Shown here in pieces: positions 4,063-8,857 of a stretch of DNA of 64,000 nucleotides (position 1 is the stretch's first letter; each line of letters starts with the position of its first letter). Source of the stretch: a virus; IMG/VR virus record IMGVR_UViG_3300042892_003815, positions 126,951-190,950 of that record. One strand, 5' to 3'. A program made the position numbers and the translations under genes. The notes under the pieces were generated by a model, which made no database searches, was not told the DNA's origin, and was given only the letters and a program-made list of their open reading frames with translations.

Positions 4063-6612
4063 ATGAGCATGATAAAAGTAATAAAAAGAAATGGTAAGAA
4101 AGAGCCAGTCATGTTAGACAAAATCTTAGACAGAATCACACAACAAACTTATGGGTTAGATCAAAAATGGATTGTTCCTTTTGAAGTAGCACAAAAAGTA
4201 ATTGAAGGTATTATGCCAGATATTCAAACTTCTGTTTTAGATTCTCTAGCAATGGAGACTGCAGCATCTCTTACAACAAAACACCCTGACTATTCAACAT
4301 TAGCGGCAAGATTAGCAATTACAGCATTACACAAAGAAACTAAAAAAAGCTTTTCAGAAACTGTTTCTGATTTATACAAATACATAGATCCTAAAACTAG
4401 AAAACATTCACCGATTGTTTCTAAAAAATTCCGTGATATTGTAAAAAAACACGCAGATGAATTAGACTCTGCAATTGTACACTCCAGAGATCATAACTTT
4501 GATTACTTTGGATTTAAAACATTAGAAAAGTCATATCTATTGAAACTTGACGGTAAAGTTGCCGAAAGACCTCAATATATGTATATGAGAACTGCACTAC
4601 AAGTTTGTGGTGAAGACATACAGGGTGTTATCGACACTTATAACTTACTTTCAGAAGGTTATTATACACACGCAACACCAACATTATTCAACTCTGGGAC
4701 AACAAGACCTCAATTATCTTCTTGTTTCTTACTTGATACAGAGTCAGATTCTATTGAAGGTATTTTCAATACACTAAAAGAATCCGCACAGATTTCTAAA
4801 AATGCAGGTGGTATTGGTATCTCTTTTACAAAAGTAAGAGCAAAAGGAACTTATATCGCAGGAACTAACGGTACTTCAAATGGTATTATTCCTTTCCTAA
4901 AAATCTTCAATGAAACTGCAAGAGCAGTAGACCAAGGTGGTGGGAAAAGAAAAGGTTCAATTGCAATTTATATGGAACCTTGGCATGCCGATATTATGGA
5001 CTTCTTAGATTTAAGAAAAAACCAAGGTAAAGACGAAATCAGAGCTAGAGATTTATTCCTGGCTATGTGGACCAATGACTTATTTATGGAAAGAGTTGAC
5101 TTAGACGAAGATTGGTCTTTAATGTGTCCTCATGAATGTCCTGGTTTAACTGAGACTTACGGTCAAGAGTTTAGAGATTTATATATTGGATATGAATCAG
5201 AAGGAAGATTTAAGAGAGTAGTTAAAGCTAGAGAAGTATGGAATAAAATCTTAGAATCTCAAATTGAAACTGGAACTCCTTATATCTTATATAAAGATTC
5301 TATCAATGAGAAGTCTAACCAATCAAACATTGGTGTAGTTAGAAGTTCTAATTTATGTGCTGAGATTGTTGAGGCAACAGGAATTACTAAAGTTCAAAAA
5401 GAAATTCTTCAAAATAAAGAATTATTAGAAAGTTTAGGATTAGGCTCATTCTATGGTGAAGAATCAGTAAATGAAACTGCAGTTTGTAATTTAGCTTCTA
5501 TCGCACTTCCTAAGTTTGTAAATAAAAACAAAACCTATAACCATAACAAGTTATTTGATGTTGCTTATCAAGCTACTGTAAACTTGAACAAAGTTATTGA
5601 TGTAAATTATTATCCATCAGAAGCAGCTAGATTCTCAAACTTATTACATAGACCAGTTGGTTTAGGTGTTCAAGGATTAGCAGATGTATTCTTTTTATTG
5701 GGAATTACTTATGACTCTGATGATGCAAAATCATTAAACAAAGAGATTTTTGAAACTATTTACTATGCTTCGATTAAAGCCTCTTGTGATTTAGCTAAAG
5801 TAGAAGGTGCTTATCCAACATTTGCTGGGTCTCCAATTTCAGAAGGTAAATTCCAATTTGACTTATGGGGTACTAAACCAACAAAAAGATGGGATTGGGA
5901 CAAGTTAAGAGAAGACATTAAAAAATATGGAGTTAGAAACTCTTTAACTACTTGTATTATGCCAACAGCATCAACAGCATCTATTCTAGGAAACGAAGCA
6001 AGTTGTGAAGCACAAACTTCAAATATGTACACAAGAGGTGTTTTATCTGGTACTTTTATCATTGTAAACAAATATCTTGTAAAAGAGTTAGTTAAATTAG
6101 GTATCTGGTCTGATAACATTAGAAGAAAGATTATTGCAGAGAATGGTTCAGTTCAAAACATACCTGAAATTCCTACTAATGTAAAAGAAATCTTTAAAAC
6201 CGTTTATGAGATTAAACAAAGAGACGTAATTGATATGGCGGCAGAAAGAGGAGCATTTATTGATCAAACTCAATCTATGAATATCTTTATGGATTCTCCA
6301 AACTTCGCAAAATTGACAGCAATGCACTTTTACGGTTGGGGAAGAAGAGCTCTTATGAAAGATGAAAATGGTGTTGAAATTATCCCACAAGGAGAAAACA
6401 CAGAAGTAATCTATGATAAATCTGGTAAGCCAAGATTTTACAGAGAGAAAAAATCAGCTTTAAAAACTGGTATTTACTATCTAAGAAATAAAGCAGCAGG
6501 TGATGCAGTTAAATTCACAACTCAAGAAGAAGTGAAATCTGTTGAAGACCAAATGGCAGAAATCAGTTGTTCGTTAGACAACCCAGATGATTGTTTAGCT
6601 TGTGGTTCATAA
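4063..6612 (+). CDS. nrdA: Ribonucleoside-diphosphate reductase class Ia large subunit with ATP cone
   Basis: VIKRNG ATP cone, ATPTLFNSG, LSSCFL, SNLCAEI, AVCNLAS, MPTAST, LKTGIYYLR, C-terminal CLACGS. Confidence 0.97.
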   Translation: MSMIKVIKRNGKKEPVMLDKILDRITQQTYGLDQKWIVPFEVAQKVIEGIMPDIQTSVLDSLAMETAASLTTKHPDYSTLAARLAITALHKETKKSFSETVSDLYKYIDPKTRKHSPIVSKKFRDIVKKHADELDSAIVHSRDHNFDYFGFKTLEKSYLLKLDGKVAERPQYMYMRTALQVCGEDIQGVIDTYNLLSEGYYTHATPTLFNSGTTRPQLSSCFLLDTESDSIEGIFNTLKESAQISKNAGGIGISFTKVRAKGTYIAGTNGTSNGIIPFLKIFNETARAVDQGGGKRKGSIAIYMEPWHADIMDFLDLRKNQGKDEIRARDLFLAMWTNDLFMERVDLDEDWSLMCPHECPGLTETYGQEFRDLYIGYESEGRFKRVVKAREVWNKILESQIETGTPYILYKDSINEKSNQSNIGVVRSSNLCAEIVEATGITKVQKEILQNKELLESLGLGSFYGEESVNETAVCNLASIALPKFVNKNKTYNHNKLFDVAYQATVNLNKVIDVNYYPSEAARFSNLLHRPVGLGVQGLADVFFLLGITYDSDDAKSLNKEIFETIYYASIKASCDLAKVEGAYPTFAGSPISEGKFQFDLWGTKPTKRWDWDKLREDIKKYGVRNSLTTCIMPTASTASILGNEASCEAQTSNMYTRGVLSGTFIIVNKYLVKELVKLGIWSDNIRRKIIAENGSVQNIPEIPTNVKEIFKTVYEIKQRDVIDMAAERGAFIDQTQSMNIFMDSPNFAKLTAMHFYGWGRRALMKDENGVEIIPQGENTEVIYDKSGKPRFYREKKSALKTGIYYLRNKAAGDAVKFTTQEEVKSVEDQMAEISCSLDNPDDCLACGS

Positions 6613-6657: not shown

Positions 6658-6912
6658 ATGAAAATAAGAAAATTTAATGAGGAAATTGGGAATCCAAGTT
6701 ATCCTAATCCTCACAGACCAATGAAACAATTTGTTTTAACAACAACAAGTGAAAGTTCAGATCACTATATTTATTTTATTGAACATCCAGAAAAACCTAC
6801 ACAAGAAGAGTTAAAAAAGTTCTTAATTGAACAAGGAAATGATGTTGAAGATGGATATTCATATGAAAATGTAGATATGTGTGTTGAAATAAAAGACTTT
6901 AAAAGACTATAA
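6658..6912 (+). CDS. Hypothetical protein, capsid-targeting-like N-terminus
   Basis: 84 aa ORF starting MKIRKFNEE; TTATATATA 5 nt before ATG. Confidence 0.75.
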   Translation: MKIRKFNEEIGNPSYPNPHRPMKQFVLTTTSESSDHYIYFIEHPEKPTQEELKKFLIEQGNDVEDGYSYENVDMCVEIKDFKRL

Positions 6913-7016
6913 AAAATCCACCTTGGAAAAAAGCGAAATTTTCAAGGTTACTATATACATAAAATAAATTAAAAAAAGATTAAACTTTTTCTAATTTAAT
7001 AATACAATAATACAAT

Positions 7017-7082
7017 CAGTAGCAAATCATAGAGATACTTCGAAATGGATTCTAAAAAACTCTCTAAGATAACTTACTCTGG
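7017..7082 (+). ncRNA. Predicted short Y-RNA-like (Yrl-like) RNA 1
   Basis: Non-coding, upstream of Ro60. 5' motif CAGTAGCAAATCATAGAGATACTTCG. Helix 7026-7035 pairs with 7061-7070 (one mismatch); outer AGTAG pairs with TTACT 7074-7078. The motif recurs in RNA 2. Confidence 0.65.
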
Positions 7083-7099
7083 TTTTATTTTAAAAAAAC

Positions 7100-7325
7100 G
7101 CAAACATAGCAAAGTTCTAAGATACTTCGTATATTATACAACTATCAGCAAGAACGTATAAAGAGACTGCTTTATACTACCCACCTAAGAACTCAGCTTC
7201 TTAGTTATGGTTAAACAAGTCAGGAATTCATAAGTTTCCTTAAAAAGTATGAGTGAGATGTTACTTAAAGATCGGCAAAGTTAAGTAGAATTCTTTGTGT
7301 CGCTTAGGCTAATATTCTTGTTTGC
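7100..7325 (+). ncRNA. Predicted long Y-RNA-like RNA 2 with a multi-hairpin internal domain
   Basis: Ends pair (GCAAACA 7100-7106 / TGTTTGC 7319-7325; TAGC/GCTA; CTAAG/CTTAG). Shares the TAGCAAA-N-AGATACTTCG motif with RNA 1. Four internal hairpins. Confidence 0.65.
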
Positions 7326-7336
7326 TAAATTATAAT

Positions 7337-7377
7337 AAGACCAGATTTACAGAAATGTAATTCTGGTCTTTTTTTTT
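7337..7377 (+). terminator. Strong intrinsic terminator between the RNAs and the Ro60 gene
   Basis: AAGACCAGA-T-TTACA-GAAA-TGTAA-T-TCTGGTCTT followed by a T-run. Confidence 0.85.
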
Positions 7378-7408
7378 ACAAAAGATGAAATAAAAATAAA
7401 ATAAAATT

Positions 7409-8857
7409 ATGTCAAAATTTAACACAACCGTAAAAGAACCAAAAACAAAAACAATAAACCTAGCAGGTGGCGAAGCTTATTCTCAAACAAATGAATTAGC
7501 TTTAGTATCTATGTTACTAACTTCATTTGTGAATGATCAATTCTACAAATCTGGTAATGACACATTAAAAGATTTAAGAAGTTTGATTAAGAAAGTAGAT
7601 CCTGAGTTTGCCGCGAAAGCTGCTATTTATGCCCGTGATAAATTTGGTATGAGAAGTATTACTCACGCTTTGGCTGGTGAATTGACATCAGAGTTGAAAG
7701 GTAGTGAACTAGGTAAAAACTTCTATGACAAAGTTGTAGTTCGTGTTGATGATATGACTGAGATTATGTCATACTACTTAATGCACAAAACAAGTAAAGA
7801 CAATCCAAAGTTTCCAAACTCTTTGAAAAAAGGATTTGCAAAAGCTTTCGATAAGTTTGATTCTTACCAATTAGCAAAATACTCTGGTAAAAACAAAGAT
7901 CTTAAATTGGTTGATGTAGTCAACATTGTACACCCTGTTCCAACTGATAGAAACAAAACTGCTTTAGAATTACTTGTTAAAGCAGACTTGAAAGTCACTG
8001 AAACTTGGGAAGCTAAACTTTCTCAAGCAGGTCAAGTGGCCGAAAATGAAGAAGATTTAAGTCAATTAAAAGCGGATGCTTGGACTGATTTAATCACTTC
8101 AAGAAAAATCGGTTATTTTGCACTTCTTAGAAACCTAAGAAACATCTTAAATCAAGCACCTAATGCAGCTACTGCCGCATGTGAGTTGTTAGTAGATGAG
8201 AAAATGATTAGTAAATCAAGAGTTTTACCTTTTAGATTTGCAACTGCATATGAAGAAATTAGTAAAATGGGATCTTCAAAAGGAGTTAGAGAAGTATTGG
8301 TTGCAATAAACCAAGCGTTAGAGGTTTCAATGTGTAATGTTCCTAAGTTTGATGGTGATACATTAGTTGTTATGGACGTTTCTGGATCAATGAGTGGAAG
8401 ACCTTCTGAAATTGCATCATTATTTGGTGCGATTTTGGCAAAAGCTAACAATGCAGATGTTTTAACATTTGCGACTAGATCAGATTATAAGTCATATAAT
8501 CCATTGGATTCTGTTATGACAATTAGAAATAGTTTTAGATACTCTGGAGGTGGAACAAACTTCAAGTCAATCTTTACTACTGCTAATAAAAAATATGATA
8601 GAGTTGTTATTCTTTCAGATATGCAAGGATGGGTTGGTTACACAAGTCCAAGTGCGGAGTTTAAGCAATACAAGAAAACATATGATGCAAATCCTTATGT
8701 TTATTCTTGGGATTTGGCTGGTCTTGGGACAATGCAGTTTCCAGAAAACAATGTATTTGCTTTAGCTGGTTTCTCCGATAAAGTTTTTGATGTTATGAAG
8801 ATGATGGAAATGGATAAGAAAGCTCTTTTCAATGAAATTAAAGCTATTCAACTTTAA
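7409..8857 (+). CDS. rsr: Ro60 / TROVE-domain RNA-binding protein with C-terminal vWA domain
   Basis: TINLAGGEAY, AIYARDKFGMRS, YQLAKY, TWE, YFALLRNLRNI, RVLPFRF, vWA MIDAS DVSGSM, GGGT, ILSDMQ. Confidence 0.93.
   Translation: MSKFNTTVKEPKTKTINLAGGEAYSQTNELALVSMLLTSFVNDQFYKSGNDTLKDLRSLIKKVDPEFAAKAAIYARDKFGMRSITHALAGELTSELKGSELGKNFYDKVVVRVDDMTEIMSYYLMHKTSKDNPKFPNSLKKGFAKAFDKFDSYQLAKYSGKNKDLKLVDVVNIVHPVPTDRNKTALELLVKADLKVTETWEAKLSQAGQVAENEEDLSQLKADAWTDLITSRKIGYFALLRNLRNILNQAPNAATAACELLVDEKMISKSRVLPFRFATAYEEISKMGSSKGVREVLVAINQALEVSMCNVPKFDGDTLVVMDVSGSMSGRPSEIASLFGAILAKANNADVLTFATRSDYKSYNPLDSVMTIRNSFRYSGGGTNFKSIFTTANKKYDRVVILSDMQGWVGYTSPSAEFKQYKKTYDANPYVYSWDLAGLGTMQFPENNVFALAGFSDKVFDVMKMMEMDKKALFNEIKAIQL

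What the first reader, a model, noticed from the sequence alone, without database searches (positions are those of the whole stretch)
7100..7325. Long Y-like RNA carries a four-hairpin effector domain instead of a tRNA mimic
Seen: inside the terminal stem are four clean hairpins: GTATAAAG/CTTTATAC (7156-7177), CTAAGAA/TTCTTAG (7185-7204), AGGAA/TTCCT (7222-7240) and TACTTAA/TTAAGTA (7262-7287). No canonical GTTCGA T-loop or D-loop pair was found. Established: YrlA carries a tRNA-like domain in this position. Inference: a new multi-branched effector domain grafted on a Ro-binding stem, possibly a scaffold or decoy for a host ribonuclease or anti-phage sensor.
Basis: partly seen in the sequence, partly recalled or inferred. 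Interest (0 to 1): 0.7.

Follow-up and report, generated by a model that had tools for sequence, protein, structure and literature searches.

The report
Large phage Y RNA, non-tRNA cargo
A 226-base structured RNA just upstream of a giant phage's Ro60 gene uses the same end-paired "handle" as the tRNA-mimicking Y RNAs that sit beside Ro60 in bacteria and phages, but carries a conserved six-hairpin domain where they carry a tRNA look-alike.

Summary
The RNA at 7100-7325 is real. It lies directly upstream of a phage Ro60/Rsr gene (7409-8857), on the same strand, in 32 distinct related phage sequences (214-320 nt). A curated structure holds in 96% of cells against 34-46% for slid controls, with 10 pairs changed on both sides.

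No tRNA-like element is present by ARAGORN, the Rfam tRNA and YrlA models, or motif scans.

The terminal stem (7 bp, bulged U, AG/CU, internal loop, second helix, then AUACUUCG) matches the handle of a very widespread RNA, GAGUUACUUCG followed by a T arm. I found at least 119 phage and at least 120 cellular stretches of it. They lie beside or in the same genome as Ro60 genes and give weak full-length matches to Rfam YrlA.

So this is a Y RNA of YrlA ancestry whose tRNA-like cargo is replaced by another domain. Ro60 binding and the cargo's partner are inferred, not shown.

First readers of this scan noted the same RNA pair in two other genomes. Follow-ups on other phages described handle RNAs with hairpin inserts.

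Verdict: new variant of a known kind.

The parts
6920..6948 (+). Conserved hairpin at the start of the intergenic region. Function unknown.
   Evidence: Arms change in step among relatives (CCTTGG/TCAAGG, CCCTTG/TAAGGG, CCCTCG/TGAGGG), seen by eye in the alignment.
6950..6959 (+). Conserved ACTATATACA (relatives GATATATAC). Possibly the phage late promoter for the RNA operon.
   Evidence: Near-invariant ATATATA in 21 of 23 aligned loci. The promoter role is inference; no transcript data.
7016..7082 (+). Unit 1, a small Y-like RNA. Closing helix 7016-19/7079-82, bulged U7020, AG/CU 7021-22/7077-78, inner 10-bp helix 7026-35/7061-70, and a loop that starts with UACUUCG (7036-42).
   Evidence: RNAalifold on 24 sequences: 16 pairs, 10 of them with changes on both sides.
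7100..7106 (+). Unit 2 handle, closing helix P1, 5' strand. It pairs with 7319-7325.
   Evidence: Across 30 sequences the arms read GCAAACA/TGTTTGC, GCAAGCA/TGCTTGC, GAGGACA/TGTCCTC, GAAGGCA/TGCCTTC and ACAAATA/TATTTGT.
7107..7129 (+). Unit 2 handle, 5' side. Bulged U7107; AG 7108-09 pairs with CU 7317-18; internal loop; P2 7113-16 pairs with 7307-10 (C7117 bulged); P3 7118-21 pairs with 7303-06; then the motif AUACUUCG at 7122-29.
   Evidence: UAG..CU in 27 sequences and UGG..CC in 5. The second P3 pair is GU 10, GC 5, AU 3. The motif is invariant.
7129..7155 (+). Region B, a variable hairpin region. In six relatives UUCGA pairs with UCGAA just before AAGUG. AACUAU at 7140-45 is a possible alternative partner of the 5' AUAGUU.
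   Evidence: Read by eye, plus the script. Unresolved.
7156..7177 (+).
   Evidence: Base pairs covary. L003 has GTATAGAG/CTCTATGC where the window has GTATAAAG/CTTTATAC.
7178..7212 (+).
   Evidence: helix 5 is 97% paired, with CG 13 and UA 5 at one pair. The upper stem differs in sequence and length in every lineage.
7222..7240 (+). An optional module.
   Evidence: Present in 13 of 18 close relatives and invariant there. Covaries against the second subfamily.
7252..7265 (+). Hairpin G, with the conserved loop GAUG(G). The loop GAU 7257-59 may pair with AUC 7271-73.
   Evidence: Helix 7 is 96.5% paired, with 2 pairs changed on both sides. Loop to AUC is GC 13, UA 3.
7275..7298 (+). Hairpin H.
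   Evidence: Helix 9 is 97.5% paired, with 3 pairs changed on both sides. It is longer in the other subfamilies.
7303..7325 (+). Unit 2 handle, 3' side: CUUA, GGCU, internal loop AAUAUU, CU, UGUUUGC.
7338..7378 (+). Intrinsic terminator: a 14-position stem with one U-U mismatch, a GAAA loop and a T run.
   Evidence: Sequence. The core GACCAGA/TCTGGTC is invariant across the family. An Rfam terminator-type alignment covers it.
7409..8857 (+). rsr, the Ro60 homologue (TROVE plus vWA domains).
   Evidence: Pfam TROVE 5.3e-20 with vWA. The closest solved relative is Thermus phage phiLo Ro60, 9KOP/9L5Y, E 2.7e-25.

Best explanation
Unit 2 (7100-7325) is a phage-encoded Y RNA.

Its 5' and 3' ends form a handle: a 7-bp helix, a bulged U, AG/CU, an internal loop, a second helix, then AUACUUCG. 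This handle is homologous to the handle of YrlA-type Y RNAs and is the likely docking site for the Ro60/Rsr ring encoded 84 nt downstream.

Where YrlA has a tRNA-shaped module, unit 2 has a different conserved domain: hairpins B, C, D, F, G and H in the window, about 170 nt, and up to about 270 nt in relatives.

Unit 2 is probably transcribed together with the smaller unit 1 (7016-7082) from a promoter near 6950, and the transcript ends at the terminator at 7338-7378.

By analogy with Rsr-Y RNA-PNPase particles, the cargo domain most likely tethers the Ro60 ring to another macromolecule (a host or phage RNA-processing protein), or gates the ring.

Shown here: conserved structure, strict linkage to rsr, handle homology, absence of tRNA features.
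Inferred: Ro60 binding, co-transcription, and the tethering role.
For: Linkage to rsr:
- 32 distinct unit-2 sequences, all directly upstream of rsr on the same strand, whatever the upstream gene is.

Structure:
- 49 curated pairs are 96.2% paired against 34-46% when slid. Ten pairs change on both sides. 0 of 500 shuffles reach this.
- P1 covaries across three subfamilies.
- G-U pairs fit only the + strand.

Handle homology:
- The 5' layout ([stem]-U-AG ... GAG(A/U)UACUUCG) and the 3' layout (ACUC/CUYA ... U-rich loop-CU-[stem]) are shared with tRNA-bearing RNAs in L043, L065 and L102. L043's core scores 32.1 bits on Rfam tRNA positions 9-63.
- The exact [6 bp]-U-AG...CU-[6 bp] layout occurs in 38 of 113 such RNAs against 7 in a control.

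Those tRNA-bearing RNAs are Ro60 partners by linkage:
- At least 119 phage stretches.
- TROVE is present in 42 of 50 of their records, and in 17 of 18 records that are at least 90% complete.
- At least 120 cellular stretches, 89 with an Rsr-like gene on the same strand, at a median 392 nt.
- Full-length weak matches to Rfam YrlA fall exactly on them.
- UUAC in the motif fits the YUAY motif that PMC4201824 reports as conserved in YrlA.

Precedent:
- phiLo Ro60, the closest solved relative of the window's protein, binds two upstream Y-like RNAs and host PNPase in vitro (PMC12135203).
Against: - No RNA or binding data.
- The published bacterial Ro60-binding motif GNCGAAN0-1G is not present as such. 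CGAA follows UACUU only in unit 1 and is not conserved in relatives.
- At 226 nt (214-320 in the family) it is far above the 80-130 nt given for characterised Y RNAs (PMC4201824).
- The fold of the window sequence alone is not better than shuffles.
- A strong terminator between the RNA and rsr would also fit a cis-regulatory leader.
Confidence: 0.7

Rival explanations
1. It is a cis-acting leader or attenuator of rsr. The structured RNA senses Ro60 or another ligand and decides whether the terminator at 7338-7378 forms, setting Ro60 expression. It is not a free-standing RNA.
For: - It sits immediately 5' of rsr, with an intrinsic terminator in between and only 30 nt of A/T-rich spacer before the ATG.
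- The terminator stem sequence is invariant and resembles the closing strand of unit 1. In L020 both read CTCTGATT.
- The 5' AUAGUU has two mutually exclusive partners.
Against: - RNAs with the same handle lie about 11 kb from rsr inside tRNA arrays in L065 and L102, so the handle works in trans there.
- Unit 2 is closed by its own end-to-end helix, separate from the terminator.
- A promoter-like site (10 of 12 matches) lies between the terminator and the ATG.
- The two roles do not exclude each other.
Confidence: 0.15
2. It is a degenerate or disguised tRNA mimic: the interior still folds into a tRNA-like L shape, or is a decayed YrlA tRNA module.
For: - The handle and the motif GAG(A/U)UACUUCG are those of YrlA-type RNAs.
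- In six relatives UUCGA pairs with UCGAA, like the first hairpin after the motif in the tRNA-bearing forms.
Against: - ARAGORN finds nothing in the window or in 32 related intergenic fragments.
- Rfam tRNA and YrlA give no match up to E = 10.
- There is no UUCRA, GGUUC or D-arm pattern in 7100-7325.
- The conserved loops (GACAGC, GUGAAAAAGUCC, GAGAUGG) are unlike T or D loops.
- The interior is conserved under selection, not decaying.
Confidence: 0.07
3. The hairpins are chance inverted repeats in A/T-rich non-coding DNA and there is no functional RNA.
For: The single-sequence fold has z = -1.04. One of the four listed hairpins is indeed not conserved.
Against: Covariation, and conservation across loci whose rsr proteins are only 62-81% identical.
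Confidence: 0.02

Closest known systems
YrlA (Y RNA-like A; Rfam RF02553; Chen et al. 2014, PMC4201824; Wang et al. 2018, 10.1101/312249)
   Same: - Encoded beside rsr on the same strand.
- The ends pair into a long interrupted stem.
- It carries the motif GAG(A/U)UACUUCG, which I found in at least 119 phage and at least 120 cellular tRNA-bearing RNAs linked to Ro60. Three of these that I checked coincide with weak full-length RF02553 matches.
   Different: - There is no T arm, D arm or acceptor-like hairpin. The interior is six other hairpins.
- It is 226 nt against a 114-position RF02553 model.
- RF02553 gives no match, even at E = 10.
Yrl1 and Yrl2 of Thermus phage phiLo (PMC12135203)
   Same: - Two Y-like RNAs sit upstream of a phage Ro60 gene.
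- phiLo Ro60 is the closest solved relative of the window's protein.
- Neither phiLo RNA is described as tRNA-like.
   Different: - The phiLo RNAs were defined by CGAA motifs and are small; the modelled Yrl2 stem-bulge region runs only to G59.
- Their binding to Ro60 and PNPase was measured. Nothing is measured here.
- I found no clear sequence relation.
YrlB and Yrn2, and metazoan Y RNAs (Y RNAs without a tRNA module)
   Same: A terminal bulged helix with an effector loop. Unit 1 of this locus fits this type well.
   Different: Those RNAs are 80-130 nt with a simple internal loop (PMC4201824). Unit 2 carries a large, conserved, multi-branched domain.

Membership tests
YrlA (RF02553) | tRNA-like module: T arm, D arm and a closed acceptor-like hairpin | tested here: not met
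   ARAGORN finds 0 genes. No tRNA or YrlA match at E up to 10. No T-loop or D-arm patterns.
YrlA (RF02553) | Encoded within about 4 kb of rsr on the same strand | tested here: met
   Unit 2 ends 84 nt before the rsr ATG on the + strand, and the same holds in all 32 distinct relatives.
YrlA (RF02553) | Conserved YUAY at the top of the stem, and a 5' motif GNCGAAN0-1G | tested here: inconclusive
   The window has AUAC and relatives have UUAC or AUAC within GAG(A/U)UACUUCG. GNCGAA is absent as such; the 5' strand has a bulged U then AG(C/U)(A/G)A instead.
Y RNA (general) | 5' and 3' ends pair into a long stem containing a bulged helix | tested here: met
   P1 of 7 bp, bulged U7107, then AG/CU, with compensatory UGG/CC in 5 sequences. 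P2 and P3 are supported.
Y RNA (general) | Bound by Ro60 | not testable with these tools
Y RNA (general) | Size of about 80-130 nt | tested here: not met
   226 nt here and 214-320 nt in the family. The size range is from PMC4201824.
tRNA | Cloverleaf recognised by ARAGORN or Rfam RF00005 | tested here: not met
Bacterial RNase P RNA | A P4 helix between a GAAAGUCC-like and an ACAGAA..GGCUUA-like strand, and a match to the Rfam models | tested here: not met
   No Rfam match. In five sequences the candidate partner AUCGG changes C to A with no compensating change in GUCCG. In three of them the change is instead matched in the loop of hairpin G (pair 273/292).

The most novel reading that the evidence does not exclude
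The Ro60 handle is a portable mount, and this giant-phage lineage has loaded it with a new, independently folding RNA domain of 170-270 nt. The domain has pseudoknot-type contacts and recruits a specific partner other than the tRNA-recognising factors addressed by YrlA. Phage Ro60 particles would then be programmable by swapping the cargo. A second layer is possible: the invariant terminator and the two alternative partners of AUAGUU could form a Ro60-sensing switch for rsr expression.
Probability: 0.3. Interest if true: 0.7.

Novelty: new variant of a known kind. Interest (0 to 1): 0.5.

Why it matters
Y RNAs are thought to aim the Ro60 ring at other machines through their second module. In bacteria that module is nearly always a tRNA look-alike whose partner is still unknown.

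A natural case where the same handle carries a different, well-conserved domain gives a direct comparison. Pulling down what binds this cargo, against a tRNA-type cargo from the same phage lineage, could show what Ro60 particles do during infection.

The sequence signature (handle plus GAGUUACUUCG) also finds Ro60-linked RNAs that the Rfam model scores only below its threshold or not at all.

Tried and rejected
- Rfam at gathering thresholds on the whole window gave nothing. Permissive scans of 6800-7500 and of loci L001 and L032 gave only terminator-like and chance matches.
- RNase P resemblance. GGUGAAAAAGUCCG, GAGAUGG and GAGAAUUC..GCUUAGG recall conserved regions I, IV and V of RNase P RNA. 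I rejected this: no Rfam match, and the P4-like pairing is not kept when AUCGG changes.
- T-loop reading of ACUUCGA. Rejected because the fifth base varies freely.
- UAC/GUG pairing between AUACUUCG and AAAGUG. Rejected because it clashes with the covarying base of hairpin C and is broken in the window, L003 and L031.
- Cargo elsewhere. The pattern for hairpin G plus AUCGGC gave 13 stretches in IMG/VR: 10 in this family and 3 chance hits in G+C-rich coding DNA. The cargo was not found outside the family at this sensitivity.
- The first pattern scan (ATAGNNTGAGWTACTTCG) mostly hit coding DNA by chance, but it led to the three tRNA-bearing relatives.
- Thermus phage phiLo upstream region. UUACUUCG occurs once, but inside what looks like a small reading frame, so I drew no conclusion.
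- MAFFT Q-INS-i was not installed. A full-length covariance model was not attempted because of the size limit for calibration.
- The window's own record is only 33% complete and holds no tRNA-bearing handle RNA. Two relatives' contigs do (L191 with L047, L196 with L028/L058).

Full report
**Setting**

The window is A/T-rich phage DNA. It encodes a class I ribonucleotide reductase (4063-6612), a DnaB-type helicase and DNA methylases. Its nearest GenBank relative is a 635-kb uncultured phage. It is part of a 190,950-base virus record judged 33% complete.

The gene at 7409-8857 encodes a TROVE plus vWA protein, that is a Ro60/Rsr homologue. Its closest solved relative is the Ro60 of Thermus phage phiLo (E 2.7e-25 over nearly the full length).

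The 496 bases between the previous stop codon (6912) and this gene hold no reading frame of 50 codons on the + strand.

**The observation**

The window sequence alone does not fold better than shuffles (z = -1.04 for 7100-7325), so everything rests on relatives.

A protein-guided scan found 31 viral loci with this rsr, 47-98% identical. A DNA pattern scan added more.

In 32 distinct sequences a 214-320 nt element with the same ends lies directly upstream of rsr on the same strand, although the upstream neighbour differs.

**Structure of unit 2**

The closing helix covaries plainly: GCAAACA/TGTTTGC, GCAAGCA/TGCTTGC, GAGGACA/TGTCCTC, GAAGGCA/TGCCTTC, ACAAATA/TATTTGT.

After it comes a bulged U and two pairs. 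These read AG/CU in 27 sequences and GG/CC in 5. Then come an internal loop, a second helix (P2 and P3; the second P3 pair is GU 10, GC 5, AU 3) and the invariant AUACUUCG.

Inside, RNAalifold and my reading of 18 close relatives give:

Its upper stem has a different sequence and length in each lineage.
It is missing in 5 of 18 relatives.
- Hairpin G, with the loop GAGAUGG.
- Hairpin H.

Counted together, 49 pairs are 96.2% paired against 34-46% when partners are slid. Ten pairs change on both sides, and no shuffle of 500 reaches the observed values.

G-U pairs fit only the + strand.

Two points stay open:
- A three-pair contact between the loop of G and AUC at 7271-73 (GC 13, UA 3).
- Two mutually exclusive partners for the 5' AUAGUU.

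**No tRNA mimic**

- ARAGORN finds nothing in the window or in 32 related intergenic fragments.
- Rfam tRNA and YrlA give no match up to E = 10.
- No T-loop or D-arm pattern occurs in 7100-7325.

**What the handle is**

The pattern scan happened to hit three phage tRNA arrays (L043, L065, L102). RNAs there have the same 5' and 3' ends as unit 2 but carry tRNA arms inside. One of them scores above the Rfam tRNA threshold for positions 9-63 only.

Searching for GAGTTACTTCG followed within 5-35 bases by a T arm returned at least 119 phage stretches and at least 120 bacterial and archaeal stretches.

These RNAs are Ro60 partners by linkage:
- TROVE is encoded in 42 of 50 of the phage records, and in 17 of 18 records that are at least 90% complete.
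- 89 of 120 cellular loci have an Rsr-like gene on the same strand, at a median 392 bases.

Rfam's YrlA model gives full-length matches of 34-44 bits, below its threshold of 69, exactly on three of these elements that I checked. The UUAC in the motif fits the conserved YUAY of YrlA (PMC4201824).

The exact layout of six pairs, U, AG ... CU, six pairs is found in 38 of 113 of them, against 7 in a control.

So unit 2 and unit 1 carry the YrlA-type handle.

Unit 1 (7016-7082) is a minimal form: handle, a 10-pair helix and a loop that begins UACUUCG. Ten of its 16 pairs change on both sides.

**Mechanism**

The best reading is a Ro60 particle with two RNAs, as shown biochemically for phage phiLo. 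There, two upstream Y-like RNAs bind the phage Ro60 and host PNPase (PMC12135203).

The handle would dock on the ring. The cargo would contact something else.

What differs here is the cargo: a large conserved domain that I found only in this family. A pattern for hairpin G plus AUCGGC hit 10 family loci and 3 chance sites.

Binding, processing and the partner are all inferred.

The main rival is a leader or attenuator role, suggested by the terminator between the RNA and rsr, the invariant terminator stem, and the alternative pairing.

**Comparison and novelty**

This is not a YrlA member by its defining tRNA module. It is a Y RNA by architecture and linkage, but about twice the usual size.

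Two relatives' genomes also carry a tRNA-bearing handle RNA elsewhere (L191 with L047, L196 with L028/L058). The published rule that each Ro60 genome has at least one tRNA-like Y RNA may therefore still hold. The window's own record is too incomplete to tell.

Within this scan, first readers noted the same RNA pair in two other genomes. Follow-ups on other phages described handle RNAs with tRNA-like or hairpin inserts.

I rate this a new variant of a known kind, of moderate interest.

Noticed in passing
L196:125-265 (also L191, L118, L176): These look like tRNA genes: acceptor 5' strand and D arm, then anticodon arm, T arm and acceptor 3' strand. A roughly 57-nt handle hairpin ending in GAGUUACUUCG is inserted between the D arm and the anticodon stem. 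This is the circular permutation of the YrlA layout. ARAGORN does not call them. L196 and L191 lie on the same contigs as rsr loci of this family.
   Followed up: partly
window 6920-6959 and 6973-6990: A conserved, covarying hairpin (6920-6948) directly after the upstream stop codon, then the conserved ACTATATACA (possibly a late promoter), then a small leader hairpin AAAAAG/CTTTTT with a conserved loop, all before unit 1.
   Followed up: no
window 7338-7378: The terminator stem core GACCAGA/TCTGGTC is invariant in about 30 diverged loci while its loop varies. Its 3' arm resembles the closing strand of unit 1 (CTCTGGTC). In L020 both read CTCTGATT.
   Followed up: no
window 7112-7117 with 7140-7145 or 7307-7311: The 5' AUAGUU of the handle can pair either with GGCUA on the 3' strand or with AACUAU inside the cargo. 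In some lineages each partner changes in step with it (L100 ATAGAA/TTCTAT; L019 TAAAT/GTTTA). This could be a switch or a pseudoknot.
   Followed up: partly
L263, L298 (genome contigs): The motif GAGTTACTTCG plus a T arm also occurs on contigs labelled as archaeal (a DHVE2 group MAG and a Halosimplex MAG).
   Followed up: no
L116:6830-6889: In Gordonia phage Rabbitrun, a partial Rfam tRNA match (positions 5-66, 31.7 bits) lies unannotated just before the tRNA array downstream of its Ro-like gene. It is probably that phage's YrlA-type RNA.
   Followed up: no
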